A stretch of DNA of 64,000 nt, taken from NCBI GenBank assembly GCA_951406725.2, contig CATOCA020000001.1:7874001-7938000 (forward strand), given 5' to 3'. This stretch comes from Octopus vulgaris. Taxonomy: Eukaryota. A program made the position numbers and the translations under genes. Within the stretch, counting starts at the first letter, position 1. The number at the start of each line of letters is the position of its first letter. Positions 4,691 to 42,639 of the stretch are shown here, piece after piece. Below the pieces are notes generated by a model. It worked only from the letters and a program-made list of their open reading frames with translations. It was not told the DNA's origin and ran no database searches.

Positions 4691-5222
4691 TGATATATAT
4701 ACGTTTAGGAAGTGAGGGAGAGGATGAGGTGAACGATATAGTAAGGCAGGCGGGGTGGTTAAACATGAATATATAATGAGGTGCTGAGAGAAAGGAGAGA
4801 AAGAGGGAGAAGTGGGAGGATATGTTTTGAGGGAGGGAGAAAGAAAATGCTATTTGTGTTTAATAAGAAAGAGAGAAGGGGAGGGGGGAAGCATTGTGTA
4901 ATTTATGATGAGGTGAGAGGCGGAGGAGAAGAGAAAGAGAGAGAGAGAGACATAGAAAGAGGGAGAGAGCGCGAGAGAATAATAAATATATTTACCAATA
5001 GAGGAAGAGTATGAGTTAATAAAGGAAGCAAAAATGGGCGGAGTCACGTATACGATGTAGTGGGAGGAGTCAACGTTGAAACGGTAAGAATAATAACTCT
5101 TATTAGATCCCTTTTACTTTAAATTCTATTGTTTTCTTTTATGCGAAATAAAATCTGTTTTTCTGCGCAGTTTGTGAAGATTTCCAAATATGATTTCATG
5201 CAAATAATAGATCGAAGTGTTA

Positions 5223-5701
5223 GACATACAGCATCTCGAAAGAGTCCAGAAGCTGGCTACCCGCATGGTTCATGGTCTCAAAAATTTGTCCTACGAAGAA
5301 AGGCTGAGGACGCTCGACCTTTATTCTCTTGAAAAACGCCGCCGCCGTGGTGATCTCATTCTCGCCCACAACATCATAAGCGGAAAGTGTAACCTCTCGA
5401 AGAGCTGTTCTTCACTCCTGCTCCAGAGCGTCGGCTGCGGGGTCATTCCGAAAAGCTCTACCTGCGACGATTTCATCTCAATCGAAGGAGAGGAGCTTTC
5501 TCCGTCCGGGCTGCGGATCCGTGGAACAAGCTGCCAGACGAGATGGTGAAGATGCCGACGACCGCTTTGTTCAAAGCCTCCCTGGACCTCAAGTGGCCTG
5601 AACTTTTTACATGAACACCACCCTGTACTTAACTCCATGTCCCCCTACATGGCCTTGCTATTTGCTTTTGAGCCAAATTAACTAACTAACTAACTAACTA
5701 A
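5223..5701 (+). mobile_element. 5'-truncated CR1-like LINE 3' end with (TAAC)n tail
   Basis: LERVQKLATRMV...LSYEERL...LEKRRRRGDLI post-RT motif; TAAC tail at 5679-5701. Confidence 0.88.
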
Positions 5702-6519: not shown

Positions 6520-8076
6520 TCTGGAAGAATTATGTTGCTGAAGAAAATATGCACCAGAACAATGAAGAAATCGTCTCTAAACGGAAAGTGAACATTTTTC
6601 TTATAAATATCCAAAGGAAGCTTGAAGTTGACAGCTTCGATATCTACAGCCACAATGGTCTTCCTTGACCAGATACAAGAATTGTTGAAGTAGCTAATAT
6701 TCCAATTGGGCTTAGAGAAGAAACCATTTTTAAGGTGAAAAAAATGTATTAATAAACTTCTGCCAACTTTAGACATTGAACAACGACTAGATTTTGATAA
6801 AGCTATCAGGTCCATAAATAGTAAAAGAAGGAAGAATTCTGTTCTTAAATGCAAATGGTGGCACAGGGAAAACCTATGTGATCAACATCATACTTGATAG
6901 TTGCTACTGCCACGTCTGCTATTGCAACCACTTTGCTTCTGAAAGGGAGAGTTCTTCATTCTATGTCCAGGATTTCTCTCAGTGAGACTACAAAATCAAC
7001 ATTCAGACTCACAAAGAGAGACGTCACAAGAGAATTTGTGCCTCAATCTGGTCTCTTAGTTATCGATGGGACCAGGATGGGGCCTAAGCATCTCTGTGAG
7101 TGCCTTGAAAGGAGATTGCATGATGTGTGAGACTGTAACAAACCTGTTTGTGAATTTACTATATTACTGTCTGGTGATAGAAAACAAATTCTTGCAGTTA
7201 TGTCATCTTGGAAGATTATAATTTGTTGATGCAGATCCTTTCTTGAGGATTGAGTAGAAATAGTGAAGATAGGAACCAATCTAAGACTTCTTACAAAAGG
7301 TCATTCTGATGAAAAAGAGTCTGTTAATCACCATTTTGATGCTGGAAATGGTGATATTTCTGTCGAACAAAGTCTAGGTGCATCCAAATCAACCTGCTTT
7401 ACAACTTTGGCCTGTCAAGTTTATGTGATGTTGTCTTGCAAATAATTTCAGAGACCCCATGTGGCTTGCAAACAGACCCATTATTACTCCAACAAATGAA
7501 ATATCACAATTTGTAAATGAATTCATGTTGACCAGGATCCCTGGTGAGGTAAAGATATGCAGAAGCTCAGATACAGTTGATAATGAAGCTCTGTACCTAA
7601 TCAAATTCATCAACAAACTCCTACCATCAGGGTTTCCATGGACATATCCTCACACGAAAGACAAGAGGCTGCATTAGGTTTTTGAAGAATTTAGATGCTA
7701 AACAAGACCATTGCAATGACACAGGCTACGTTATTATCTGCTTCCAAGATCTTATTATTGCTGCCGGGGTTGCTTGTGGTTATTTTGCAGGATCAATCTC
7801 AGGGATTCCAAATGGGTCTCAAGGAATGGAGTTCCCATTCATAGTTACCATACAAACAATTTCCTGTGGAACCACTCTTTGCCTTGACATGCAACAAAGC
7901 ACAGGAACAGACATTTAAACAAACTGGAATATATCTTCCAACACAATTCTTCTCCCGTGGTCAGCTGTAAGTTTCACTTTCTAGAGTTTGGATGAAGCCT
8001 AATGTAAAACTATTGGCTGAGAGAAATAGAAACTGTATATTTACTAACAATCGTGTCTATAAGGAGGTTCTATTTG
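6520..8076 (+). mobile_element. Degenerate Helitron-type PIF1 helicase relic
   Basis: Broken frames contain GGTGKTY (Walker A), ATSAIATTLL, LSGDRKQILAV, IITPTN, NLDAKQDHCN, QFPV, and TCNKAQEQT...FSRGQL.VSLSRV. Confidence 0.85.
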
Positions 8077-8479: not shown

Positions 8480-8685
8480 TCAACTGAAGTCTGATAATAA
8501 ACATTCAGCTGCCACGAAACATTCGGTTTCTAAAAGTGCTTCTTTTAATGTTTGAGGTGTACGTTTCGCTGGATCGCAACTTTGGAACCATTTGAGAAGC
8601 ATCTGATAGCCTTGTTCCACAATGTTATAAGGATTTTCGTGCCTGACTATTTGCAGGTCCTCGTCTGTAATTTCTAATTCCCTTC
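8480..8685 (-). CDS. Death domain exon 2 (terminal): GRELEITDEDLQIVRHENPYNIVEQGYQMLLKWFQSCDPAKRTPQTLKEALLETECFVAAECLLSDFS*
   Basis: TTTTGCAG acceptor ending at 8686; death-domain hallmarks (EQxYQMLxxW, TxxxLxxAL); TGA stop at 8480-8482. Confidence 0.9.
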
Positions 8686-13842: not shown

Positions 13843-13893
13843 CAAGTGGCTGAGCCTCTGTCTGGGATGCCTTGTCTTCAACCTTTGGACGCA
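13843..13893 (-). CDS. 51-nt phase-1 microexon VRPKVEDKASQTEAQPL
   Basis: TTTCAG acceptor, GTGAGT donor, open frame. Confidence 0.8.
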
Positions 13894-16502
13894 CTGAAAT
13901 AAACATTTCCAAGTTTTATACTTCATAGTAAAATTTCTTTATCTTTATGAATAATTCTGTATTTTATTATTGTGAGACATTCATGTAATCAATGGTCAAC
14001 TGGTGAGTAATATGGCTTTGGTCAGCATTTTTACACTCTCTACCATGGGACCGTGTAATATACCCAATATATAGGTCTACTACTAAATAGACTGACCTTC
14101 CTCAATCTCCTCTCACTATTAAGACATCCTACATAATCTAACAACATTGCACTTATCTCATTTAATAATCCCTTGTTAACACTGCTAATCTCTTTCTTAT
14201 ATTTAATCTAATCTATGACATGATTGTCCTCTCATCTCTAGACTTCACTAATCAACATTCTTCTCGTTTTCTACTTAATTCCATGACAACCAAATTGGTC
14301 CTCAAAAATCGGACCACAAAACCATGACACATTGTTTCAGGTAGGATAAACATAACCACGCTCTCTTTTTTAAAGGTCACTGTTGGCAACCTTTAATTTT
14401 AACTGACCACATCACACTTCATCAGAATATAATCTGATTAAGGAAATGTCAATCAACCTCCTTAATAAGCGACTTTTTTTCAGGTGAACAATGATTAGTT
14501 CTACAACGGTGGAGAGGTAAGCGATAACAGGTATCCTGAAACACTGTACTTTTGTACAAAACATCCTTAACTACAAAATAACTGTTCATGTACAACACAT
14601 TATTACAAAGGGGTTATATCCAAATTGAGAACTAACAATTTATTCTGGAAGAATATATAAATCGAACTGGAAACATGAAATTTTGCTTTTTTTTAGTAGT
14701 TTTGAATTATCAGTTGTTTTCTGTCCATCTTCAGCTTTGCCATGGTCTCACTACCCCAGTATGTATCAGTCAACAAGATAGCGTACCACCATCTTTAACT
14801 TTTGGTTTGTCTTTAACTTTTGGCATGAGTTCTCCTGCCGTTCGTAACTTCCTTGCTCCAGCTGACCATTCACAAATTATAGACTGCATTACTTATTTGC
14901 TTGAAAGTACTTACTCTATCGAGTCTACTAACCAGAACTATTTGCATATCCTTTTAGTCTCTTGTTAGTATTGTTATGTCAGCCATGAATATCTTTCCGT
15001 TGAGCAATTTCTTCTGGACATTCTGTTAATCTAAGTAGCATAACTATAAAGATCACCAACCAACTGATATTGTGCAACCTACAGCTATTCCAGATCCAGA
15101 ACCTGGCAGTCTTTTGTGAACTTTTATCCTATGAAACACATTTTGAAACTGTTATAGCATCTCATCATCAGATCCTCAATCTCCTCCCATTTATGAAAGA
15201 AATTCCTTGTTTCCATCAACAATGTGTGTGGTACAGAACCAATAAGCATTAGCCAGATGAAGCCATACTATATCCGAATCTCTTTTATTCTTCTTTGCTT
15301 TTTATATGGCATCCCAGATTTAAAATGCATGTTCTACACACACAGACATTCTCCGAATTCTAGTCTTCTGGACATTTTCAGTCGTATAACCATTATTTTG
15401 CTGACATGTAGCTGATTTCATGGCAAGTACACCCATGTAAATCTTGCCATTCAAGATTGAAATTGGCTTCAATTGGTCACTTAGTTCTGCATTAACTTAC
15501 TTTGATGAATAAAATCCTTTTGTCTTGCACCATTCATCAATCAGTCCACCTTTATCCCACAACTCTCTAAATAGTAATTAATGCTTATAACACCTGGGCA
15601 CAACATCTGTACACGTTCTATGGTACACAATCACCTCCCGTTGCAATCTCCGTTCTTGCCTTCTTCACTAAGCTTTATACTTGTTTCTTGCTGAAATCGC
15701 AAAGCTGAAATATTTGATTACTGGTTTCATTGGACATTTCAATCCAAACATGAGCAGGTAAAGTTGACTTCGCTTGGGATCATTGTATATCTGCCGTATA
15801 TTCTTGTTCACTTCATCTTTAGTGCATTATAATCTCCCCCACTTAACATCGGCAAAAATATCCTAGTACCATCAGAAGGGTTCTTAAGGAGCTTTTATCT
15901 AAGGTGTTCACTATCCGTTCTCCTTTCAACCCGTCCGATGTCTCTTTGAATGTATTTGATTGTATTGTATCATACAGCCTCTATGAAGTTTGAAGAAAGG
16001 GAAAGAGACAACGGTTTTCTGAGCAGCAAACCAACGTCTTCCACTGGAATAAAGACAATGTTTACTGGATGCAATGATAGATTTATTATCAGTGAAAAAT
16101 ATGAGGGTGGTCATATTTGGAACGCATTTCATTGTAAGTCTGCCAGATTATGAGAGACATCAGCTAAAATAACAACAATAACTTGTCAGTAAACATTTTA
16201 AAAATATAAAACAAACAAAACCTTTGTCATTACCTCACCTGTTAAACCACAACATATATTATTTGGCTGCTCCAAAAGAGAACCTGAAATCTATTTCGCT
16301 TCTCATTTATCCATTTCACCAACCGTGCTAACCTGATTGGATACTTTATGAAATGTCAATAGTATCGATATGTTAAATAGTTTACTGCTAAAACTTCCCA
16401 TTGAAAGGTAAGAATTGAAGCTGATCTTTATCATTCTGATATCAAAATAAGCAGAGGATATACTTTACAGAAATCAATCTAGTGCTGTTATTTTATACTC
16501 AA

Positions 16503-16553
16503 CAACAGGTTCTGCCAGTGTCTGTGTTTCTTTGTCTTCAAATGTTCGATTCT
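16503..16553 (-). pseudogene. 51-nt microexon ENRTFEDKETQTLAEPV, donor mutated (TTGAGT)
   Basis: Acceptor and frame are intact and it carries a canonical KxTQT motif, but TT replaces the donor GT. Confidence 0.7.
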
Positions 16554-16609
16554 CTGAAATAAATATTTCCAAGTTTCAAACGTTATAGTAAAATTTCCTC
16601 ACATGTACT

Positions 16610-17464
16610 TTTATCCCCAGGACATGGAGAAATATGCCACTCTGCTGCAAGTCCATGATCATTCTGATGATTAAAGAGATTTGTTTGATGTCCCTAGTTC
16701 TTGTATTGGTCGGCTGCTCCGTCACTGAAGTACAGGAGATGGTTTATGAATGGAAGTTCTGTCTTTATATGCGATATCACCCTCGTAATAAAAGCATGCA
16801 CTGTGCTGTAGTCATGTTTCAAACAATCAGATATGACACAGATTGAAGTGCATTGTGGGTTTGAACCAGTCTTATAACAAATCGCGAATGGTGAATATTT
16901 GCCTGGGATTTGTTTCGATGAAACCCTTGCAGGGCGTCCTGTACTACAAAGCTATAATTTTTTTCTGTAAAGTCCAACAATACTATTGCTTCACTTGATG
17001 TCAGGTCATCTTTTTGATGATTAAGGAAACAAGATTGGGCCTCTGCTATGAAATGATGTTGTTGTAGAGATTCAAACACACTTTCAGCGGTTTGAATGAA
17101 GGCATTCACTGGGGAAGTGAGTCATAAAGGAGGAGCTGACCAGTCCACATGTGCCAACTGTTTGTGCGTTACTAAACCTCCAAGTGATTAAAATACGTCT
17201 AATAAACGTTGTTCAAAAGGACAGGACTCACATAGGAGCAACATACAATCTCGATTGCTCACGGAAGAGACCATTTTGCCAAGCAAGTCTCTGTAGTCGT
17301 GACTACCAGGAATGGCAGCGGCGATACGTTTTGCATGTTGGTGATTCTCACAGACACATACTGAATGCATGCCTGAGGTGTACTGCGCATACACACCAAA
17401 AGTGTGCGGGTGAATTCACTAGGGGTTTTCTCAATCTAAGCGTATCTCCCAAGATCCCGGTGTC
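16610..17464 (-). mobile_element. Degenerate DNA transposase, probably Sola-like
   Basis: CVC..H, DCM...C..CP, HHFIA..Q, LLDF.ENYSFVVQDA.QGFH, SDCLKHD and FSDGAA.QYKN motifs. Superfamily assignment is from memory of these motifs only. Confidence 0.65.
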
Positions 17465-18470
17465 CTGTTATTGCCATTGTGAGGCCAATGTTTGAAGGTC
17501 ATACTTCATCACCTCATCCCATGTCTTCCTGGGTCTACCTCTTCTACAGGTTCCTTCTACAGTGAGGGAGTGGCACTTCATCACACAGCTGTTTTCATTC
17601 ATACGTAACACATGACCATACCAGCACAGTAGCCTCACTTGCACACCACATTTGATGCTTCTTATGCCCAACTTTGTCGTGATTGCATACTGACGTTACA
17701 CATCCAGCGAATCATACTAACTTCATCTCTTTCAAGCCTACGCATGTCCTGAGCATCCATGGCCCATGTTTCCCTGCCCTGTAACATGGCTGTTCGCACA
17801 CATGCATCATGCAGTCTACCTTTCACCCTGAGTGATAGACCTTTAGTTGCCAGCAGAGGTAGGAGCTCCCTGAACTTTGCCCAGGCTATTCTTACTCTAG
17901 TCTCTACACACGCAGAGCAATCACACTCACTACAGACTTGATCCCCTAGGTAACAGAAGCTATTAACTACTTCTAGTTTCTTCCCCTGGCATGTGATGGA
18001 ATCTGTTTTCTGTACACCTTCAGTGTTTATTGCCCCAGAGCATTTGCCACACACAAAAACTATTTTCCCGGTTAACTTTCTTTGATATTGCGGCATCTTT
18101 TATGTGTCCATAGCTTCCCCGGTTACATCGTGTGGAGTTTCTACCCTCTCCATTTCTACAGATAGAGCAGGGCCATCTACCTGAAATGGGTTGTGATTTG
18201 ACAGCCTTCCTACTAACAAGGACTTTGGTTTTGACTAGGGTTTTGACTAAGGCCCTTCAATTCTAGACTTTGCTCCCACACCCTTAACTTTGTCTCTAGT
18301 TCTGGCAGTGACTTGTCTGTAAGAGCAAGGTCATCAGCATAAAGAGGCTCCCAGGGGCAGAGTGCCTTGAATTCCTCTTTTATTGTCTGGAGGACTATAA
18401 TGAATAGGAAAGGGCTGAGGACGGATCCTGGGTGAACCCTGATGTGTATTTGTAATATGGAATGTTTCAC
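17465..18470 (-). mobile_element. RTE-clade LINE reverse transcriptase fragment
   Basis: VHPGSVLSPFLF, LYADDLAL, RVRIAWAKFRELLPLL, SMIRWMCNV and WYGHVLRM...GRPRKTW motifs in broken frames. Confidence 0.9.
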
Positions 18471-19130
18471 AGAGTATAGAGGATGTATGAAAACTGTTAA
18501 GAAATGAAGTGAGCATACTTCAGAAGAAGTGTAATATTAATGTGCTGAAGTCCCGGAGCAGAGATGAGCTGGAAGCAAAACTGGGGTTTAGAAGATTCAG
18601 AGATAGCACACAAGAGACGAGATGGTACAGATATGGGAGGAGTATGGAAGATAAAAAGTTAGATAAAGAAGTGTCAGGAGATCCAAGTAGAAGGGAACAA
18701 GACGTTAAACCTGTGGGAGTAGTCAAATTTGAATGCAACAATCAAGTCAGAACTAAAACCAGAGGTGAAACACTCAGAAAACTGTGCCTCTTTTAGCATT
18801 AATATCATCTAAAATGTAACAAGAGTGAGAAAAAGAATGACTATATGGATGGTAAATGTTGTTCAAACAATGTAATAAGTGTATATTATATATAGTTACA
18901 AACAAGGATTTGTGAGATCAAGTCACACAGGGAACTCATATTTTATTCCTATCTTTATATTTTATGTCAACACCAATGTTTTGTTTAAATTCAAACAGAT
19001 GTTCACCGTTCAATACCAAATTTAATATTTAATCAACATTAATGATCATTATACTTATACTCTTAGAGATTTGATTTTTAATCCTTTTAATTTATAACAA
19101 TGTTATCCTGTGGTTTGTTGCAAGTTCTAC

Positions 19131-19391
19131 CTGGCTGGTTCCCTGTGCCGGGGGAAAGTAAAAAGCACCATCCGAACGGTGTCAATGCCAGCCCCAACCT
19201 CAACTGGCTCCTGTGTCGGTGGCACGTAAAGAGCACCCACCACACTCTCGGAGTGGTTGGCATTAGGAATGGCATACATATGTGGAAACCTTGCCAGATC
19301 ACATTGGAGCCTGGCGTAGCCTACTGCCTCTCCAGTGAAATCGTCCGACCCATGCTACTATAAAAACGGACGTTAAACGATGATGATGATG

Positions 19392-19440
<49 letters not shown>
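19131..19440 (+). mobile_element. SINE-like element with (GAT)n tail; co-duplicated at about 21176-21463, 23755-24147 and 26255-26603
   Basis: GGCACGTAAA..CACCCACCACACTCTCGGAGTGGTTGG...CGGACGTTAAACGATGATGAT, a repeat I recognise as typical of octopus genomes. Confidence 0.75.
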
Positions 19441-19691
19441 GTTCCATGACCAAATGACAATATTAACTCTATTGTGTCTTCTAATTTGAACATTATTACC
19501 AACAGCATTAACCTCAATGGGTATTTCATAAATTCTCAGTAAATCGATATCTTTAATTCAATTATTATACAGATAATCGTTCAATTGGAAAATAGGAATG
19601 GAAGCTGTTTTCAGTTATTCTTTCGAGCACAATATACTCGGGGAAAGAAAACCTTACAGAAATCAATTGGGAACTATTATTTTATACTCAC

Positions 19692-19769
19692 CAATTGCCT
19701 GAGATGCAGCCCCTAATTCCTGACATATAGCCTCTGTTTGTACACACCTGTCCTCAAACTTTGGAGCCT
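19692..19769 (-). CDS. 78-nt phase-1 microexon EAPKFEDRCVQTEAICQELGAASQAI
   Basis: TTTCAG acceptor, GTGAGT donor, open frame. Confidence 0.8.
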
Positions 19770-20691
19770 CTGAAATAAATATTTCCAAGTTTTACATTTA
19801 ATAATAAACTTTCTTTATCTTTATTTTTATTAAACTCTATCTTGTTATTGTGAGACATTCAATTCCTGTCGTTACTGGTCAACTGTTGACCATTATGGTT
19901 TTGGTCAATATTTCTGTACTTTCTAAAGTGGTCCCATGTAATAGCCCAATATGTCCACAATAAAACAGACTAACATCTCTAAATCCACCCTCACTTCTGT
20001 CTCTCTCTCTCTCTCCTCTCTCTTTAAAAACACATTAAATATTCTAACAATGTTGCAATTATCTCATTTAATTAACACTTGATAAGAGTTTTCTCTTAGC
20101 TTTGTCTTTCTTTTCTTATAACTGCCAAATCTATGGCATGGCACAGTCCTCTCATCTCTAGAATTCACTAATCAACATTCCTCTCTAATTAAGTAAAACT
20201 GAGCCCATAAAGACATGTCCTTTATATGCATACCCTCCAACCCGCACACAATCTGTCCCCTAAAAAACATCTGCACAAGCCAAATTCCATACACCCTTCC
20301 CCACCATGATCCCTAACAAGATATAAAATGTAAGGTGAGGGTACACGATGTTCCTATGACAAAATAAATTTACATTTCAGACATACAAATGTAAGAGAGT
20401 TAATGAATTATAGCTTATTAATTATCATGATAATTGGGTATATATGTGATACAATGGCACTGTGCTTGACGGTGCAATACTAGATATCAATATAGATTGT
20501 ATATAATCTGAGTAAAGAACATATAACCGTCATTACTATGAATATGATTGTGTCTCAGCACAGCTAATATTATGGTAGTTCCATGAGCAAACGAAGAAAG
20601 ATATAACCAAGTCCACTGCCAAATACTAATGATTAATTCATTTCCTGGTCAAATAACAATGACTATCTTTCATTAAATAATTTGAACGCAA

Positions 20692-20990
20692 CGATGTCAG
20701 TGTGCACACAAGGCAGAGTGAAGAGGCCTGAGAGAAGTGTTAGACATAAGAAGCATCAGATGTGGTGTACAGGAGAGACAACAGCACTGGTATGGTCATG
20801 TGTATGGATGAGGAGAGCTGTGGGAAGAAGTGTTACACCCTAACAGTGGAAGGAACCCGTGGAAAGGAGTGGCCCAGGAAGACAGGGGATGACGTAGTGA
20901 AACGACCTTCGAACGTTGGGCCTCACAGAGGTAATGGCAAGAGACAGAGACCTGTAGAAATATGATGTAATTAAGAGGACTCGGCAAGTG
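20692..20990 (+). mobile_element. RTE LINE 3' fragment (duplicated at about 23272-23570)
   Basis: WYGHV.MDEESC.KKC.TLTVEGTRGK..PRKT motif. Confidence 0.75.
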
Positions 20991-21715
20991 AAGTGAGATC
21001 AGAGCTGTAGCATATACCAGTGGCGCATAACCAGCCCTTTTTAAAAGTACCCTTGAATCACAGAGTGATAAGTTGCGCTTGAGAAGAATTTCCGAGTCAA
21101 GTAAAACCAAAAACCAGAAATCACAAATCAAAATCAAATCAAGATCGAAATCAAAATGCAAATTGTAATCATGGCTGATGCCAGAGCCGCCTGGCTTCCA
21201 CCCGTGCCGGTGGCACGTAATAAGTACCATTCAAACATTGTTTGTTGCCAGTGCCGCCTGACTGGTTCCCTGTGTCGGTGGCACGTAAAAAGCACCCACC
21301 ATACTCTCGGAGTGGTTGGCGTTAGGAATGGCAAACATATGTGGAAACCTTGCCAGATCACTTTCGAGACTGGCGCAGCCTACTGCCTTGCCAGTGAAAT
21401 CATCCAATCCATGCCACCATAAAAAAACGGACGTTAAACGATTGTGATGTTGATGATGATGATTAGTTCCATGACCAAATGACAAAATTTACTCTATTGT
21501 GTCTTCTAATTTGAACATTATTACCAACAGCATTAACCTCAATGGGTATTTCATAAACTCACAGTAAATCGATATCTTTAATTCAATTATTATACAGATA
21601 ATTGTTCAATTGGAAAATAGGAATGGAAGCTGTTTTCAGTTATTCTTTCAAGCACAATATACTCGGGGAAGAAAACCTTACAGAAATCAATTGGGAACTA
21701 TTATTTTATACTCAC

Positions 21716-21793
21716 CAATTGCCTGAGATGTAGCCCCTAATTCCTGACATGTAGCCTCTGTTTGTACACACCTGTCCTCACACTTTGGAGCAC
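21716..21793 (-). CDS. 78-nt phase-1 microexon GAPKCEDRCVQTEATCQELGATSQAI
   Basis: TTTCAG acceptor, GTGAGT donor, open frame. Confidence 0.8.
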
Positions 21794-22454
21794 CTGAAAT
21801 AAATATTTCCAAGTTTTACATTTAAAAATAAAATGTCTGTATCTTTATTTTTTTAAACTCTATTTTGTTATTGTGAGACATTCAATTCCTGTTGTTACTG
21901 GTCAACTGTTGACCATTATGGTTTTGGTCAATATTTCTGTACTTTCTACAGTGGTCCCATGTAATAGCCCAATATGTCCACAATAAAACAGGCTAACATT
22001 CCTAAATCCACCCTCTCTCTCTCTCTCTCTCTCTAAAAACACATTAAATATTCTAACAATGTTGCAATTATCTCATTTAATTAACACTTGATGACAGTTT
22101 TCTCTTAGCATTGTCTTTCTTTTCTTATAACTGTGCCAAATTTATGGCATGGCACAGTCCTCTCATATCTAGAATTCACTAATCAACATTCCTCTCTAAT
22201 TAAGTAAAACTGCACCCATAAAGACATGTCCTTTATATGCATACCCTCCAACCCGCACACAATCTGTCCCCTAAAAACATCTCCACAAGCCAAATTCCAT
22301 ACACCCTTTCCCAACATGATCCCTAACAAGATATAAAATGTAAGGTGAGGGTACACGATGTTCCTATGACAAAATAAGTTTACATTTCAGACATACAAAT
22401 GTAAGAGAGTTAATGAATTATAGCTAAATATTTATCTTGATAATTGGGTATATA

Positions 22455-23021
22455 CACTACCGTCAGAAATTAATTAGCACCCTTGATTTGCTCACCATGA
22501 AGCATGGTGGGGGTGGTCTGATGGTGTGAGGAGCGTTCAGCTACAGTTGTGTTGGGTGGCTCTATGCCGTCGAAGGCAACATCAACGCAGCAAAGTACGT
22601 TGAGATAGTACGGGATACCTCTTTGGTGGCGAGGAGTACGTGCTGGCCAGTCACCTGACCTGAACCCTATTGAGAACCTCTGGAGTCGATTGGGTAGGGA
22701 TTTGAATGTGCAGCAATACAGGAACCGACACGAACTGTTTGGGGCACTTCTTGCTGCATGAGGGGCCATCCCTGCACAGTACCTGCAGGCACTCATAGAG
22801 AGCATGCCGACCCGCGTAGCAGCTGTCATTGCTGCCAAAGGAGGAGCAACAAGATATTGACTAAATTTCACGATTAATATCAATTATGTGGTGTGCTGGG
22901 ATATGTTTTAATAAATTTTTGATTAAAAACGAGTTCGTTTCTGATAATAAGTTAATTAAATTAAGAAAATGTAAGAAAATGTAGAAATTTGAGAAGTGCT
23001 AATTAATTTCCGACGCAAGTG
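22455..23021 (+). mobile_element. Internally deleted Tc1/mariner element (567 bp) with about 26-bp TIRs and a TA target duplication
   Basis: TIRs CACTACCGTCAGAAATTAATTAGCAC and GTGCTAATTAATTTCCGACGCAAGTG. Transposase remnants KHGGGGLMV, SPDLNPIENLW and MPTRVAAVIAAKGGATRY. Empty sites are present in the three sister units. Confidence 0.93.
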
Positions 23022-24107
23022 TATGTGATAGAATGGCACTGTGCTTGACGGTGCAATACTAGATATCAATATAGATTGTATATAATCTGAGTAAAGAACA
23101 TATAGCCTTCATTACTATGAATATGATTGTGTCTCAGCACAGCTAATATTATGGTAGTTCCATGAGCAAACGAAGAAAGATATAACCAAGTCCACTGCCA
23201 AATACTAATGATTAATTCATTTCCTGGTCAAATAACAATGACTATCATTCATTAAATAATTTGAACGCAACGATGTCAGTGTGCACACAATGCAGAGTGA
23301 AGAGGCCTGAGAGAAGTGTTAGACATAAGAAGCATCAGATGTGGTGTACAAGAGAGACAACTGCACTGGTATGGTCATGTGTATGGATGAGGAGAGCTGT
23401 GGGAAGAAGTGTTACACCCTAACAGTGGAAAGAACCCGTGCAAAGGGGTGACCCAGGAAGACAGGGGATGATGTGGTGAAACGACCTTCGAACGTTGGGC
23501 CTCACAGAGGTAATGGCAAGAGACAGAGACCTCTGGAAATATGATGTGATTAAGAGGACTCGGCAAGTGAAGTCAGATCACAGCTATAGCCTATACCAGT
23601 GGTGCATAACCAGCCCTTTTTAAAAGTACCCTTGAATCACAGAGTGATAAGTTGCGCTTGAGAAGAATTTCCGAGTCAAGTAAAACCAAAAACCAGAAAT
23701 CACAAATCAAAATCAAATTAAGATCGAAATCAAAATGGAAATTGTAGTTGTGACCGATGCCAGTGCCGCCTGGCTGGCACCCGTGCCGGTGGCACGTAAT
23801 AAGTACCATTCAAACATTGTTTGTTGCCAGTGCCGCCTGACTAGTTCCCTGTGCCGTTGGCACATAAAAAGTGCCTTCCGAACGTGGACAATGCCAGCCC
23901 CAACTTCAACTGGCTCCTGTGTCGGTGGCACGTAAAAGGCACCCACCACACTCTCGAAGTGGTTGTCGTTAGGAATGGCATACATATGTGGAAACTTTGC
24001 CAGATCACATTGGAGCCTGACGCAGCCAACTGCCTTGCCAGTGAAATCGTCCGACCCATGCCACTATAAGAAACGGACGTTAAATGATGATGATGATGAT
24101 GATGATT

Positions 24108-24147
<40 letters not shown>

Positions 24148-24398
24148 GTTCTGTGACCAAATGACAAAATTAACTCTATTGTGTCTTCTAATTTGAACAT
24201 TATTACCAACAGCATTAACCTCAATGAGTATTTCATAAACTCTCAGTAAATCGATATCTTTAATACAATTATTATACAGATAATCGTTCAATTGGAAAAT
24301 AGGAATGGAAGCTGTTTTCAGTTATTCTTTCAAGCACAATATACTCGGGGGAAGAAAACCTTACAGAAATCAATTGGGAACTATTATTTTATACTCAC

Positions 24399-24476
24399 CA
24401 ATTGCCTGAGATGCAGCCCCTAATTCCTGACATATAGCCTCTGTTTGTACACACCTGTCTTCAAACTTTGGAGCCT
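24399..24476 (-). CDS. 78-nt phase-1 microexon EAPKFEDRCVQTEAICQELGAASQAI
   Basis: TTTCAG acceptor, GTGAGT donor, open frame. Confidence 0.8.
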
Positions 24477-26049
24477 CTGAAATAAATATTTCCAAGTTTT
24501 ACATTTAATAATAAAATTTCTTTATCTTTGTTTTTATTAAACTCTATCTTTTTATTGTGAGACATTCAATTCCTGTCGTTACTGGCCAAATGTTGACCAT
24601 TATGGTTTTGGTCAATATTTCTGTACTTTCTACAGTGGTCCCATGTAATAGCCCAATATGTCCACAATAAAACAGACTAACATTCCTAAATCCACCCTAT
24701 CCCTCTCTCTATCTCTCTCTCTCTAAAAACACATTAAATATTCTAACAATGTTGCAATTATCTCATTTAATTAACACTTGATGACAGTTTTCTCTTAGCT
24801 TTGTCTTTCTTTTCTTATAACTGTGCCAAACCTATGGCATGGCACAGTCCTCTCATCTCTAGAATTCACTAATCAACATTCCTCTCTAATTAAGTAAAAC
24901 TGAGCCCATAAAGACATGTCCTTTATGTGCATACCCTCCACCCCGCACACAATCTGTCCCCAAATTCCATACACCCTTCCCCACCATGATCCCTAACAAG
25001 ATATAAAATGTAAGGTGAGGGTACACGATGTCCCTATGTCTAAATAAGTTTACATTTCATACATACAAATGTAAGAGAGTTAATGAATTATAGCTTATTA
25101 ATTATCATGATAATTGGGTATATATGTGATACAATGGCACTGTGCTTGACGGTGCAATACTAGATCTCAATATAGATTGTATATAATCTGAGTAAAGAAC
25201 ATATAGCCTTCATTACAATGAATATGATTGTGTCTCAGCACAGCTAATATTATGGTAGTTCCACGAGCAAACGAAGGAAGATATAACCAAGTCCACTGCC
25301 AAATACTAATGATTAATTCATTTCCTGGTCAAATAACAATGACTATCTTTCATTAAATAATTTGAACGCAACAATCAAGACCAAAGGGTGAAACACTCAG
25401 AAAACTGTGCCTCTTTTAGCATTAATATCATCTAAAATCTAACATTTGTGAGAAAAAGAATGACTATATGGATGGTAAATGTTGTTCAAACAATGTAATA
25501 AGTGTATATTATATATAGTTACAAACAAGGATTTGTGAGATCAAGTCACACAGGGAACTCATATTTAATTGCTATCTTTATAATTTATGTCAACACCAAT
25601 GTTTTGTTTAAATGCAAACAGATGTTCACCGTTCAATACTAAATTTAATATTTAATCAACGTTAATGATCATTATACTTACAATCTTAGAGATTTGATTT
25701 TTAATTTCTTTAATTTATAACAAAGTTATTCTGACCTGAGACATTCAGGGTACGTACCTAAACAACATATCCTGACAGACATCTGGCTACATAACAATAA
25801 CAACAACAATAACCTATGAGAAAACTTTGGAAAGACCTTAGTAGCAAAAGAAACAAAAACTTTCTCGTTACCTCACCTGTTTACAAATAAACAACAAAAT
25901 GTTTTAGTTCTCTGTCCTAAAAGACATCATTAACTCTATAATGTCTTCTTATTTAACCATTTTACCAACCACGTTAACCTTGATTTTATGAAATTTCAGT
26001 GGAATATTTAATAGAATCCTTTTTACAGCTAATGCGGAAACTAGGGATT

Positions 26050-26200
26050 GACGAGCGATTATAAGAGTTGAAGAGGCCCTGTAGTAAGGTGAGGATTGGC
26101 AATGAGTATAGTGAAGAATTCCGGATAGAAGTAGGAGTTCACTAGGGATCATTCCTAAACCCCTCGTTTTCATCATAGTCCACCATGCAATAACAGAAAT
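26050..26200 (+). mobile_element. Short RTE RT fragment
   Basis: VRIGNEYSEEFRIEVGVH*GS...FIIV remnant. Confidence 0.6.
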
Positions 26201-26854
26201 GACAAATCAAAAGCAATTCAAGATCGAAATCAAAATGGAAATTGTAGTTGTGACCGATGCCAGTGCCGCCTGACTGGCACCTGTTCCTGTGGCACGTTAT
26301 AAGTACCATAGAAGCATAGGTCCTTGTCACTGCCGCCTGACTAGTTCCCTGTGCCGGTGGCACGTAAAAAGCACCATCCGAACGTGGTCGATGCCAGCCC
26401 CCACACCGGCTGGCTCCTGTGTCGGTGGCACGTAAAAGGCACCCACCACACTCTCGAAGTGGTTGGCATTAGGAATGGCATACATATGTGGAAACCTTGC
26501 CAGATCACATTGGAGCCTGGCGCAGCCTACTGCCTTGCCAGTGAAATCGTCCGACCCATGCCACATAAGAAACGGATGTTGATGATGATGATGATGATGA
26601 TGAGTTCTGTGACCAAATGACAAAATTAACTCTATTGTGTCTTCTAATTTGAACATTATTACCAACAGCATTAACCTCAATGGGTATTTCATAAACTCTC
26701 AGTAAATCGATATCTTTAATTCAATTATTATACAGATAATCGTTCAATTGGAAAATAGGAATGGAAGCTGTTTTCAGTTATTCTTTCGAGCACAATATAC
26801 TCGGGGGAAGAAAACCTTACAGAAATCAATTGGGAACTATTATTTTATACTCAC

Positions 26855-26932
26855 CAATTGCCTGAGATGCAGCCCCTAATTCCTGACATGTAGCCTCTGT
26901 TTGTACACACCTGTCCTCAAACTTTGGAGCCT
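26855..26932 (-). CDS. 78-nt phase-1 microexon EAPKFEDRCVQTEATCQELGAASQAI
   Basis: TTTCAG acceptor, GTGAGT donor, length divisible by 3, open frame. Confidence 0.8.
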
Positions 26933-27150
26933 CTGAAATAAATATTTCCAAGTTTTACATTTAATAATAAATTTCTTTATCTTTATTTTTATTAAACTCT
27001 ATCTTTTTATTGTGAGACATTCAATTCCTGTCGTTACTGGTCAAATGTTGACCATTATGGTTTTGGTCAATATTTCTGTACTTTCTACAGTGGTCCCATG
27101 TAATAGCCCAATATGTCCACAATAAAACAGACTAACATTCTAAATCCACC

Positions 27151-27188
<38 letters not shown>

Positions 27189-28613
27189 AAAACACATTAA
27201 ATATTCTAACAATGTTGCAATTATCTCATTTAATTAACACTTGATGACAGTTTTCTCTTAGCTTTGTCTTTCTTTTCTTATAACTGTGCCAAATCTATGG
27301 CATGGCACAGTCCTCTCATCTCTAGAATTCACTAATCAACATTCCTCTCTAATTAAGTAAAACTGAGCCCATAAAGATGTCCTTTATGTGCATACCCTCC
27401 ACCCGCACACAATCTGTCCCCTAAAAACATCTCCACAAGCCAAATTCCATACACCCTTCCCCAACATGATCCCTAACAAGATATAAAATGTAAGGTGAGG
27501 GTACACGATGTTCCTATGACAAAATAAGTTTACATTTCAGACATACAAATGTAAGAGAGTTAATGAATTATAGCTTATTAATTATCATGATAATTGGGTA
27601 TATATGTGATACAATGGCACTGTGCTTGACGGTGCAATACTAGATATCAATATAGATTGTATATAATCTGAGTAAAGAACATATAACCTTCATTACTATG
27701 AATATGATTGTGTCTCAGCACAGCTAATATTATGGTAGTTCCATGAGCAAACGAAGAAAGATATAACCAAGTCCACTGCCAAATACTAATGATTAATTCA
27801 TTTCCTGGTCAAATAACAATGACTATCTTTCATTAAATAATTTGAACGCAACAATCAAGACCAAAGGGTGAAACACTCAGAAAACTGTGCCTCTTTTAGC
27901 ATTAATATCATCTAAAATCTAACAAGAGTGAGAAAAAGAATGACTATATGGATGGTAAATGTTGTTCAAACAATGTAATAAGTGTATATTATATATAGTT
28001 ACAAAGAAGGATTTGTGTATTCAAGTCAATTCAATTTCTGATTGTATATTTTGTATAAACACCAATAATTTGTTTAAATATAAACAGATGTTCACGGTTC
28101 AATACTAAATTTAACATTTAATAAAATTAAGTTCATGATGAATATTCTTATACAGAGTTAACATTTAATTATAATTTTCTAATTTGCAACTACAAAATGT
28201 ATTCTAACCAGAGACATTCAGGGTACACAACCCCAGAAAATACAAAATATTACGACAGACATCTGGCTACATAACAACATCAAGAATAACCTATCAGAAA
28301 ACTTACGAAAAATCTTAGTAGAAAAACAAACAACTATTTTATTAACTCACGAGTTTACACCTAAAAAAAATAAATTATAGTTCCATAGAAGACAATATTA
28401 ACTCTATTGTGGCTTTTAATTTATCCATTTACCAAACATGTTAACCATGACTTTATGAAATTTCAGTAATATTTTTAATACAATTACTTTAGAGCTAACC
28501 TTTCAAATGGAAATTAGAAATGGGATTTGTTCTCCACCATTCTAATAAGCAAAATAGCTGAGGTGAATGTAAAATCTATAGAAATTCATTAAGATCTCTA
28601 ATTTTAAACTCAT

Positions 28614-28664
28614 CAACTGTCTCTGCCACAGTCTGCACTCCCTTCTCTTCAAACTTTGGACTCT
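28614..28664 (-). pseudogene. 51-nt microexon ESPKFEEKGVQTVAETV, donor mutated (ATGAGT)
   Basis: Acceptor and frame match the sister microexons, but AT replaces the donor GT. Confidence 0.7.
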
Positions 28665-29780: not shown

Positions 29781-29921
29781 CAACTCGACCTCTGCTTGTT
29801 ACAGGTTTCAAACACCTCAGGCATCGTTTAAGTGGAACGTTTGAACATTCTTCACATGTCAGAAGGTGTTCACAGGGATGAACTTTTGTTGTGGCCGTCT
29901 TTATTTCTGCACAACAAACAT
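29781..29921 (-). CDS. RING finger exon: CLLCRN/KTATTKVHPCEHLLTCEECSNVPLKRCLRCLKPVTSRGRV
   Basis: CAG acceptor at 29922-29924 and GTAAG donor. Removing one A from a run gives C-x2-C-x11-C-x-H-x3-C-x2-C-x7-C-x2-C, a MIB/IAP-type C3HC4 RING. Confidence 0.88.
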
Positions 29922-31586: not shown

Positions 31587-32112
31587 TTAGTTAGTTAGTT
31601 AGTTAGTTAATTTGGCTCAAAAGCAATAGCAAGGCCATGTAGGGGGACATGGAGTTAAGTACAGGGTGGTGTTTTTAAAGAGTTCAGGCCACTTGAGGTC
31701 AAGGGAGGCTTTGAACAAAGCGGTCGTCGGCATCTTCACCATCTCGTCTGGCAGCTTGTTCCACGGATCCGCAACCCGAACGGAGAAAGCTCCTCTCCTT
31801 CGATTGAGATGAAATCGTCGCAGGTAGAGCTTTTCGGAATGACCCCGCAGCCGACGCTCTGGAGCAGTTGTGAAGAACAGCTCTTTCGAGAGGTTACATT
31901 TTCCGCTTATGATGTTGTGGGCGAGAATGAGATCACCACGGCGTCGTCGTTTTTCAAGAGAATAAAGGTCGAGCGTCCTCAGCCTTTCTTCGTAGGACAA
32001 ATTTTTGAGACCATGAACCATGCGGGTAGCCAGCTTCTGGACTCTTTCGAGATGCTGTATGTCTTTGAGGAGATAAGGAGAAGAGGCTTGAATCCCATAC
32101 TCCAATATTTGT
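31587..32112 (-). mobile_element. Second, near-identical CR1-like LINE 3' end with (TAAC)n tail
   Basis: ORF 31617-32141 has the same motifs (RLRGHSEKL, FSVRVADPWNKLP); (GTTA)n at 31586-31609. Confidence 0.9.
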
Positions 32113-32846
32113 ACAGTCCAAAAATCAATATCTATAAACAATAACTGAATTTCAACAAAGAAAGTTTTGTATATTCACTGTGGGGGAAATGTGTCTGCTT
32201 CTTAAGTAGCTAATACAGAGAGATGTATGGCAAAGAAATTGCCAAATCTTATAAAATACGGGAGTCAAAGGCGACTAAAACACCTAGTAATGGTATATGT
32301 GTTACTTGAATTATTTACGTTTCCTGGCAGTTTTTTTTCTATGAAGATATGTGGCAATATTCCATCAGTATTTGCAGAAATATAATATATACACTGTTGG
32401 TGTGTGTTTGTAGGTTATTTTTCTATGAAATCATTCTTAATATTGACTGATTCGGACTTAGAAGAGTGAGAAAAAGATGTTGGTAGACAGATAAATTCCA
32501 CTTAATTCTAAGTAACAGTTTCAAAATGGAATTCATTCACTTCATTATTTAGATCTATATTTTCCTATTGATCACAAATCTTTAAAATAGGGAACGAAGA
32601 GGGGTAGGTGGGGGTGGACAGTGAAGTATAACTGTCAACACTACGAATCATGTGAATGTAATCAAAATCATGTTCTTTCTTTGATCTCCTGACAACTGCA
32701 TATTGTTTATTGTGTGGCCTTTGACAAAAACACTAGCGACAGTATAATGTATTGGTAGAATTAAAACGAAATAAACATATAAATATGATTATATACAAAA
32801 TAGAAAATGTACTGGTTTATCTGTTCCATTGCCAGGAAATACTTAC

Positions 32847-33020
32847 TGTGGTGGTAAAAATGTTTTAATTTTTTCTCAAATTTGGGTCCTTAATGAGGTC
32901 CAATGGTGTGTTATTGTTGTTGTTTTTATGGTGAAAGTCAGCTCCCTGGCTGGCGAGATATCTCGCAACCACTATACCAGAGAGCCTTTCTTCTATTTTC
33001 AGGTTAAGGGAAGTGCAGCA
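32847..33020 (-). CDS. Terminal ankyrin exon: CCTSLNLKIEERLSGIVVARYLASQGADFHHKNNNNNTPLDLIKDPNLRK/KLK/TFLPP
   Basis: TAG acceptor at 33021-33023 and GTAAGT donor. Resembles the last ankyrin repeat of MIB1/2. Two A-run deletions near the 3' end are needed to avoid a TAA. Confidence 0.85.
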
Positions 33021-34630: not shown

Positions 34631-34839
34631 TTCGTTTAGTAAATCCAAGGGTGCATCCTCGGAATCAAACACTTCTCTTTCCACGGCCAGGTGCAAACAG
34701 CTGTTACCTTCACCATCAACAGCATTTATGTTTGCACCCAGGGCTATTAACAGGTGTGTCATTCCGAGGTGACCCTGGAAACGGCTTCAAGCAATGGTGT
34801 CCTTTTCTGATTGTTTTGAATATCCAACTGAACAGAACC
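34631..34839 (-). CDS. Ankyrin exon: GSVQLDIQNNQKRTPLLEAVS/xGHLGMTHLLIALGANINAVDGEGNSCLHLAVEREVFDSEDAPLDLLNE
   Basis: AAG acceptor after a pyrimidine tract and GTAAGT donor at 34625-34630. One 1-nt deletion near 34773-34778. The LDIQN motif resembles MIB ankyrin repeats. Confidence 0.85.
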
Positions 34840-37922: not shown

Positions 37923-37957
37923 CTTTCAGCATCGCACACACCACTTTATAGTTTCGC
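37923..37957 (-). CDS. Small ankyrin-helix exon: RNYKVVCAMLK
   Basis: TTTCAG acceptor and GTTAGT donor. The phase-2 start fits, and it supplies the missing outer helix. Its end phase (1) does not match the next exon (0), implying a further small indel. Confidence 0.65.
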
Positions 37958-42487: not shown

Positions 42488-42639
42488 CTCCGAACTGCCA
42501 CATGCAGTGGTGTGTCTCCATCGTTGTCACCACATTGGCATCGATGCCATTGTGACCCAACAAAATGTCGACAGTGTGCAAGTATCCCACGAACAGGCCA
42601 AGTGCAGCGGTGTCGACCATCTTCATCTCGAGGATTAAC
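42488..42639 (-). CDS. Ankyrin exon: VNPRDEDGR/TPLHLACSW/GYLHTVDILLGHNGIDANVV/DNDGDTPLHVAVR (three apparent 1-nt deletions)
   Basis: CAG acceptor at 42640-42642 and GTAAGT donor. Ankyrin motifs are spread over three frames, and each shift is fixed by lengthening a base run by one. Confidence 0.85.

What the first reader, a model, noticed from the sequence alone, without database searches (positions are those of the whole stretch)
13843..28664. Array of seven one-motif-per-exon microexons encoding LC8 (DYNLL1)-type binding motifs
Seen: seven phase-1 symmetric microexons (51 or 78 nt) encode EEKGVQT, EDRCVQTE (x4), EDKETQT and EDKASQTE. The (E/D)(K/R)xxQT core is kept while the surrounding residues diverge. 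Known: LC8 binds (K/R)xTQT-type motifs (dynein intermediate chain KETQT, rabies P DKSTQT), and multi-motif clients such as ASCIZ and Nup159 form polybivalent duplex rods. Inference: valency and spacer length between RING and death domain could be tuned by exon duplication, loss or skipping without frameshift, acting as a dimerisation rheostat.
Basis: partly seen in the sequence, partly recalled or inferred. Interest (0 to 1): 0.85.

Follow-up and report, generated by a model that had tools for sequence, protein, structure and literature searches.

The report
Octopus death-domain-derived LC8-motif exon arrays
An expanded octopus family of ankyrin-RING-death-domain genes builds its linker from short, in-frame, skippable exons related to the first death-domain exon, and many of these exons carry a motif predicted to bind the dimerising hub protein LC8, so exon number would likely set how strongly the proteins pair up.

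Summary
The seven exons are real: minus strand, 51 or 78 nt, phase 1-1, between the RING and death-domain exons of an octopus ankyrin-RING-death-domain gene (database label 'MIB2-like', but not a Mind bomb). Corrections: only five have a GT donor; E1 (AT) and E6 (TT) do not, and paralogs share these donors. Four of the seven are near-identical recent copies. New here: the exons are homologous to death-domain exon 1 (65-70% flank identity), and 144 such linker exons were found genome-wide; 17 genes examined carry 0-8. Transcript contigs join them, and database isoforms differ by whole exons. The five GT exons pass all published LC8 position rules (0 of 19,377 background 7-mers pass the strict form), and the linker is predicted disordered. 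Against: the motif core is no more conserved than its flanks, many copies lost QT, and binding is untested. This copy also has several frameshifts upstream of the array (pseudogene or assembly error, unresolved). Verdict: exon-modular linker shown; LC8 valency rheostat about even odds.

The parts
58207..58389 (-). First coding (ankyrin) exon, distal copy; lies beyond an assembly gap at 52409-52508, may belong to this gene or to a neighbour
   Evidence: tblastn with P0009, 74% identity; N run
48187..48363 (-). First coding (ankyrin) exon, proximal copy
   Evidence: tblastn with P0009, 68% identity
45979..46071 (-). Ankyrin exon (approximate ends)
   Evidence: tblastn
42488..42639 (-). Ankyrin exon with at least two frame changes
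   Evidence: tblastn frames -2/-3/-2; sequence
37923..37957 (-). Short ankyrin exon (35 nt)
   Evidence: tblastn with P0009; AG/GT ends
34631..34839 (-). Ankyrin exon, frameshift near 34777
32847..33020 (-). Last ankyrin exon; two bases short near 32866-32873 relative to 12 of 12 paralog hits, giving an in-frame stop
29781..29921 (-). RING (C3HC4) exon; one extra base near 29897 relative to 13 of 13 paralog hits
   Evidence: joints to 78-nt exons
28614..28664 (-). E1, 51 nt, QT anchor with hydrophobic +2; AT donor, so likely skipped or used as a terminal exon
   Evidence: four O. sinensis models end by reading through this exon type
26855..26932 (-). E2, 78 nt, GT donor, passes strict LC8 rules
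24399..24476 (-). E3, 78 nt, GT donor, passes strict LC8 rules
21716..21793 (-). E4, 78 nt, GT donor, passes strict LC8 rules
19692..19769 (-). E5, 78 nt, GT donor, passes strict LC8 rules
16503..16553 (-). E6, 51 nt, canonical K-x-TQT anchor with hydrophobic +2; TT donor, likely not spliced onward
13843..13893 (-). E7, 51 nt, GT donor, passes strict LC8 rules
   Evidence: same peptide in P0003/P0009
11551..11622 (-). Death-domain exon 1 (72 nt, phase 1-1; helix 1 and start of helix 2), homologous to E1-E7 in exon and flanks
8480..8685 (-). Death-domain exon 2 to the stop codon

Best explanation
The array is the exon-modular linker of an octopus ankyrin-RING-death-domain gene family, built from phase 1-1 exons homologous to the first death-domain exon, and its QT-bearing exons likely bind LC8 dimers so that exon number would tune pairing of two chains and the RING-to-death-domain distance. 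Shown: architecture, homology of linker exons to death-domain exon 1, frame symmetry, variable number between paralogs, splicing of this exon family, whole-exon differences between database isoforms. Inferred: an early duplicate of death-domain exon 1 lost its 3' part and became an unfolded spacer; a K-x-V-Q stretch left from helix 1 was a few changes from an LC8 motif, and some lineages gained an acidic +2 or a T/S at -1; LC8 then zips two linkers into a ladder, bringing two RINGs and two death domains together (this RING type is most active as a dimer in MIB1 and IAPs); duplication, donor loss and skipping set the valency per gene and per transcript, and stop-codon read-through after an exon gives death-domain-less forms. 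The family is likely an immune or cell-death signalling repertoire under birth-and-death evolution (inference from domains and copy number). This particular copy would have five usable motifs if it is intact, which is unresolved.
For: Domains ANK, zf-C3HC4_3 and Death over Pfam cut-off in 3 of 3 full-length relatives. Flanks of death-domain exon 1 align to E1-E5 and E7 at 65-70% over 570-1000 nt and to E6 at 68% over 333 nt; linker and death-domain exons form two sides of one branch, support 79/96, not starred. 139 of 145 linker exons have lengths divisible by 3. Joints RING to 78-nt exon in 4 of 4 runs laid, 78-to-78 in 3 of 4, E6-type to E7-type in 1 of 4. O. sinensis isoforms with 4, 3, 2, 1 linker exons and a gene whose 12 isoforms carry 0-4. 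pN/pS about 0.5 for linker exons (P 0.011, 0.0015, 0.0002), so they are constrained as protein. All 5 GT exons pass strict rules; 60 of 118 GT in-frame linker exons do, against 0 of 52 death-domain exons and 0 of 19,377 background 7-mers. The most amplified core (48 of 145 copies) is a strict-pass one. Linker residues 264-320 of paralog P0011 have pLDDT under 50. An intact 89-aa LC8 gene is in the genome. Multivalent weak sites can bind cooperatively (KANK1 preprint abstract), and linker length alters assembly (PMC10046861 abstract). MIB1 RING3 is more active as a dimer (passages).
Against: Motif positions are no more conserved than flanks and +1 is the most variable; the lower rate at -3 and 0 (P 0.016-0.098) was picked after seeing the data. 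36 of 145 linker exons lack QT and only 7 of 35 distinct cores pass the hard rules; such exons are spliced and skipped just the same. Part of the motif is inherited from death-domain helix 1, so the background comparison overstates the surprise. In PMC6607443 only 7 of 19 motif-predicted peptides bound. My regex rules are a hand-made reading of that paper's text, not LC8Pred, and were not calibrated. In MIB1 the RING next to the ankyrins is inactive, so ligase activity is not assured. Contigs were laid at 90% likeness and may come from any paralog; the runs are only guessed to be RNA. This copy has at least six indels in its ankyrin and RING exons.
Confidence: 0.5

Rival explanations
1. The exons are plain adjustable spacers. 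They are tolerated, frame-preserving duplicates of death-domain exon 1 that vary linker length; the LC8 look is a by-product of the helix-1 ancestry plus recent amplification of one copy.
For: No extra conservation of the core; QT lost in 36 of 145 exons; QT-less exons are included and skipped like the rest; two genes examined have no linker exon; 48 copies share one core.
Against: At least two separate exon lineages carry an acidic +2 and one carries the canonical K-x-TQT, features absent from 52 death-domain exons; pN/pS about 0.5 shows protein-level constraint; all 21 exons with non-GT donors fail the +2 rule while none of the 66 rule-passing exons lost its donor, although this rests on only about three exon lineages.
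Confidence: 0.33
2. This copy is a pseudogene, so its array is not translated whatever the family does (compatible with either reading above).
For: At least six indels across four coding exons upstream of the array, with a stop before the RING; the three indels tested against several close paralogs are private to the window; in 3 of 4 runs the contigs covering 29899 all lack the extra RING base (depth sums); one-base indels against the closest paralog are not denser here (1.3-2.9 per kb) than between other paralogs (1.4-3.4 per kb).
Against: In the RING and last ankyrin exons indels are about as many as substitutions against 98-99% identical paralogs, which uncorrected long-read errors would give (inference); the array and both death-domain exons are intact; the region lies near a gap and long simple repeats.
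Confidence: 0.45
3. The exons act as death-domain helix-1 mimics or bind another partner, for example swapping into a neighbouring death domain or pairing through the two cysteines of the 78-nt exon.
For: Residue-for-residue homology to helix 1; a weak helix is drawn over part of the 78-nt exon in the model (residues 275-285).
Against: The leucine and tryptophan core positions of helix 1-2 are lost in linker exons; that helix has pLDDT under 50.
Confidence: 0.1

Closest known systems
Multivalent LC8 clients: ASCIZ (PMC5963919, PMC10046861) and KANK1 (10.1101/2025.07.16.665182)
   Same: Several QT-type motifs in a disordered linker; KANK1 also joins such a linker to ankyrin repeats; occupancy and spacing tune activity or length.
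   Different: Here each motif is one symmetric exon homologous to a death-domain exon, with number varying between paralogs and isoforms; I saw no such arrangement in the abstracts and sections read. Binding is shown for those clients and untested here.
Mind bomb E3 ligases MIB1/MIB2 (10.1101/2024.03.01.582834)
   Same: Ankyrin repeats followed by a C3HC4 RING; MIB1 ANK is a sequence hit (8v0e, E 1.7e-25); databases use this name.
   Different: No N-terminal substrate-binding region, one RING only, no coiled-coil RING3, and a C-terminal death domain. MIB1 dimerises by a coiled coil; here LC8 would play that part.
Ankyrin plus death-domain proteins (ANKDD1B; weak hit P0101, E 1e-9, 21% coverage)
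   Same: N-terminal ankyrins, C-terminal death domain.
   Different: No RING listed for P0101; the hit covers ankyrins only; no exon array known to me.
IAP-type RINGs (XIAP, cIAP) and expanded mollusc IAP families (PMC8917759, search listing only)
   Same: Best, weak, PDB hits of the RING exon (E 0.03-0.4); lineage-specific expansion of RING genes tied to cell death and immunity.
   Different: No BIR domains; RING is internal, not C-terminal.

Membership tests
Multivalent LC8 client | Anchor motif with Q at 0, mid-sized residues at -1/+1, K/R at -3, polar at -4, P/D/E at +2 | tested here: met
   E2-E5 and E7 pass all; E1 and E6 keep the anchor but fail +2 (rules from PMC6607443)
Multivalent LC8 client | Motifs lie in a disordered region | tested here: met
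   Predicted only: pLDDT under 50 over residues 264-320 of paralog P0011
Multivalent LC8 client | Several motifs in one chain | tested here: met
   34 of 182 octopus-labelled records hold 2-4 motifs; exon-exon joints
Multivalent LC8 client | LC8 present in the organism | tested here: met
   Intact 89-aa ORF at L011:1489-1758
Multivalent LC8 client | Motif conserved above its flanks | tested here: not met
   Core vs non-core P 0.65-0.92 in three sets of independent pairs
Multivalent LC8 client | Measured, QT-dependent binding to LC8 and duplex formation | not testable with these tools
   Needs ITC, pull-down, SEC-MALS or EM
Mind bomb (MIB1/MIB2) | Ankyrin repeats followed by RING | tested here: met
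Mind bomb (MIB1/MIB2) | N-terminal MZM/REP substrate-binding region | tested here: not met
   No such Pfam family at E up to 0.1 in 3 of 3 relatives scanned; P0003 begins with ankyrins
Mind bomb (MIB1/MIB2) | Multiple C-terminal RINGs with coiled-coil RING3 | tested here: not met
   One RING stretch, then linker and death domain
Active RING E3 ligase | Ubiquitin transfer activity | not testable with these tools
   Only the C3HC4 match is shown
Alternatively spliced symmetric exon array | Phase-symmetric exons with canonical splice sites | tested here: met
   5 of 7 in the window; 118 of 144 family-wide are GT and in frame
Alternatively spliced symmetric exon array | Variable inclusion at this very locus | tested here: inconclusive
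   Joints and isoforms come from the family and cannot be assigned to this copy

The most novel reading that the evidence does not exclude
Octopuses turned a duplicated death-domain exon into an LC8-binding module and amplified it into one-motif-per-exon cassettes across dozens of ankyrin-RING-death-domain genes, so that copy number, donor loss and exon skipping digitally set LC8 valency, and with it ligase dimerisation and death-domain signalling, in a diversified immune-type repertoire.
Probability: 0.33. Interest if true: 0.82.

Novelty: new variant of a known kind. Interest (0 to 1): 0.6.

Why it matters
How multivalent LC8 clients arise, and what motif number and spacing do, has been studied with engineered mutants of ASCIZ and KANK1. 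This family would be a natural series with zero to six usable motifs, strong and dead variants, and a traceable origin from a folded-domain exon, which makes both questions directly testable. Even without LC8 binding it is an apparently undescribed octopus expansion of mis-named ankyrin-RING-death-domain genes whose linker is diversified exon by exon.

Tried and rejected
Complex prediction of octopus LC8 (2 copies) with a one-motif stretch of paralog P0014 (2 copies): no answer, score 0.55 against controls 0.60, 0.07, 0.59; not used for or against. Run search listed no holder on record as RNA; the runs laid are guessed RNA. A per-branch selection test with reconstructed ancestors was not done, so selection rests on pairs of present-day exons. 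No DNA runs could be laid on the frameshifted exons, so their reality stays open. The position rules were not calibrated on the paper's binder and non-binder tables. The representative-protein search with full-length P0003 was swamped by long ankyrin proteins and says nothing on range outside Octopus; the fold search returned ankyrin folds only; the Atlas gave no usable hit. Word-index searches found the RING-linker-death part only in records labelled O. vulgaris, O. sinensis and O. bimaculoides (19 of 19 hits); this is weak evidence of restriction. Earlier scan notes: none. Rejected: chance motif hits; assembly error as the cause of the AT and TT donors (shared by paralogs; E1-type read-through also in O. 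sinensis models); filing as Mind bomb; two further AG-GT candidates near 25877 and 16239, which appear to be homologous intron positions of the duplicated unit and were not in the protein models I compared (not tested further). Literature searches that showed no description of this family or of LC8 motifs encoded one per exon: (listings only; open-access library), plus term look-ups in PMC10138644 and PMC13218726. No supplements were read.
Full report
Setting. The window is G000:C31:7874001-7938000. Its closest named proteins are labelled Octopus vulgaris and O. sinensis 'MIB1/MIB2-like'. A minus-strand gene runs from ankyrin exons (58389-32847) through one RING exon (29921-29781) and seven short exons to two death-domain exons (11622-11551, 8685-8480). 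Pfam gives ankyrin, zf-C3HC4_3 and Death above cut-off in 3 of 3 full-length relatives and no Mind bomb N-terminal family, so the database name is a misnomer. The public model matching this locus (P0002) omits all seven short exons.

Observation. The exons are 51, 78, 78, 78, 78, 51 and 51 nt, phase 1-1, with one shared acceptor context. E1 has an AT donor and E6 a TT donor. E2-E5 with flanks are 88-93% identical, so there are four independent types.

Family. The acceptor signature occurs 142 times in the genome against 1 for the reversed control; a slightly shorter form gives 163 sites, controls 0 and 2. I fetched 98 stretches around these sites and beside one close paralog and scanned them and the window for acceptor plus donor: 200 exons. 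One was dropped as spurious and one re-classed, leaving 144 linker exons and 55 death-domain first exons. This is a lower bound, biased to window-like splice sites. Death-domain exon 2 has 114 matches and the RING exon 30, mostly on C29-C31. For 17 of these 30 RING hits that lay in fetched DNA, the linker held 0-8 exons, 0-6 with GT and intact frame; in 10 of the 17 the scan did not reach the death-domain exon, so counts may be short. 11 linker exons have AT, 6 CT and 4 TT donors, so the window's dead donors are inherited, not errors.

Origin. Death-domain exon 1 has the same acceptor, donor and phase as the linker exons, and its flanks align to E1-E5 and E7 at 65-70% over 570-1000 nt and to E6 at 68% over 333 nt. 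The peptides align without gaps over the first 15 codons; the motif's Q and T sit where helix 1 has two variable surface positions between a fixed leucine and a valine. In a tree of 34 representatives the 21 linker and 13 death-domain exons fall on two sides of one branch (79/96, neither shown nor rejected; the alignment included exon bases). O. sinensis and O. bimaculoides models also hold full-length 24-residue copies that lack the tryptophan, which look like intermediates. The direction, death domain to linker, is inferred from the age of the death fold.

Splicing. Contigs of four runs guessed to be RNA, laid at 90% likeness, show joints at exon borders: RING to a 78-nt exon in 4 of 4 runs (one placed at E2, skipping E1), 78-to-78 in 3 of 4, and E6-type to E7-type in 1 of 4; 15 of 123 joint rows were shown, none at E1 or at E7 to death-domain exon 1. 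They prove splicing in the family, not at this copy. O. sinensis RefSeq isoforms of one gene have 4, 3, 2 and 1 linker exons (481, 464, 447, 430 aa); all 12 isoforms of another differ mainly by 0-4 linker exons. These are computed models and may include mis-mapping between paralogs. Four O. sinensis models end by reading through an E1-type exon to a stop, so E1 may serve as a terminal exon giving a death-domain-less protein.

LC8 motif. From PMC6607443 (parts 2 and 3 of 8 read) I took the position rules and wrote them as patterns. All five GT exons pass the strict form; E1 and E6 keep the anchor but have a hydrophobic +2. Family-wide 105 of 144 have the anchor, 66 pass the hard rules and 62 the strict form; 0 of 52 death-domain exons scored have even the anchor, and 0 of 19,377 7-mers from 42 non-octopus proteins pass the strict form. 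Validated binders in that paper's Table 2 (ZFPM1, SON, MAST1, HPV E4) have very similar VQT or K-x-TQT cores, but only 7 of its 19 predicted peptides bound. The linker of paralog P0011 is predicted disordered (pLDDT under 50, residues 264-320), and the genome has an intact LC8.

Results against. In edge-disjoint pairs of present-day GT exons, motif positions diverge as fast as the rest (0.274 vs 0.256, 8 pairs; 0.213 vs 0.166, 14 pairs; 0.100 vs 0.094, 31 pairs) and +1 is the most variable position. Representatives were chosen by exon divergence, which inflates exon against intron rates but not core against flank. The exons as a whole are constrained (pN/pS about 0.5, P 0.011-0.0002), while the first 14 codons of death-domain exon 1 give 1.2 in 6 pairs, so the family evolves fast and the test has limited power. 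36 of 145 linker exons lack QT and are spliced like the others. The strict count is dominated by one amplified core (48 copies). All 21 non-GT exons fail the +2 rule and none of 66 passing exons lost its donor, but this is about three lineages and only suggestive.

State of this copy. There are at least six indels in four ankyrin and RING exons, with a stop before the RING. The RING insertion is absent from 13 of 13 paralog hits and the two missing bases are present in 12 of 12; in 3 of 4 runs the contigs covering 29899 all lack the extra base (my sums). Indels roughly equal substitutions in those exons, as long-read errors would give, yet one-base indel density against the closest paralog (1.3-2.9 per kb) matches that between other paralogs (1.4-3.4 per kb). 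Pseudogene or error is unresolved.

Mechanism. Most likely (0.5) LC8 dimers bind the same motif in two chains and zip the linkers into a ladder, as in ASCIZ (abstracts of PMC5963919 and PMC10046861) and KANK1 (abstract and introduction), pairing RINGs and death domains. MIB1 uses a coiled coil for this and is more active as a dimer, though its ankyrin-proximal RING is inactive (passages). Exon number per gene and per transcript would set avidity and reach. The main rival (0.33) is a plain variable spacer whose LC8 look comes from helix-1 ancestry. An immune or cell-death role is inferred only from domains, copy number and fast evolution. PMC12057147 (abstract and section 14) warns that structure predictors dock LC8 on non-binders too.

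Novelty. Multivalent LC8 clients and symmetric-exon arrays are known kinds. I found no paper on this family or on LC8 motifs encoded one per exon (listings of an open-access library only). Verdict: new variant of a known kind; exon-modular, death-domain-related linker shown, LC8 binding untested; interest 0.6.

Noticed in passing
window 28664-28578 (minus) and P0036, P0361-P0363: The AT-donor exon type reads through to a stop within about a dozen codons, and four O. sinensis models end this way; it may be an alternative terminal exon giving ankyrin-RING proteins with one motif and no death domain.
   Followed up: partly
donors of E2, E6, E7 (window 26854, 16502, 13842): Read-through past each of these exons meets a stop after 9 codons, and many database models end so; intron retention or intronic polyadenylation could give death-domain-less forms at any valency.
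   Followed up: partly
death-domain exon 1 family (window 11622-11551): pN exceeds pS over the first 14 codons in 6 pairs (0.315 vs 0.273) with only two positions invariant; possible diversifying selection on the death-domain surface.
   Followed up: partly
run X2, loose end at window 16503; P0045, P0308: A further linker exon type without QT appears to be joined after E6-type exons in paralogs; it is not in this window.
   Followed up: no
G000:C31:5676186-5696734 (L076-L078): A near-twin gene (97-98% identical over kilobases) has the same array with five instead of four 78-nt exons and lacks the window's three tested indels.
   Followed up: partly
window 48187-48363 and 58207-58389: Two copies of the first coding exon, separated by long simple repeats and a 100-N gap at 52409-52508.
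   Followed up: no
G000:C1:102.70-102.73 Mb and 216.75-216.97 Mb: Tandem runs of death-domain exon 2 copies, most with in-frame stops.
   Followed up: no
window about 19100-19450, 21150-21460, 23740-24150, 26240-26600: A high-copy short interspersed repeat ending in (ATG)n sits just downstream of each 78-nt exon and was duplicated with it; very high contig depth. Family not identified.
   Followed up: no
window 5211-5611, 31620-32174, 22473-22883, 6818-7915: Fragments that resemble, from recall and untested, a LINE end (two copies), a Tc1-type transposase inside the E3-E4 intron and a helicase-bearing transposon.
   Followed up: no
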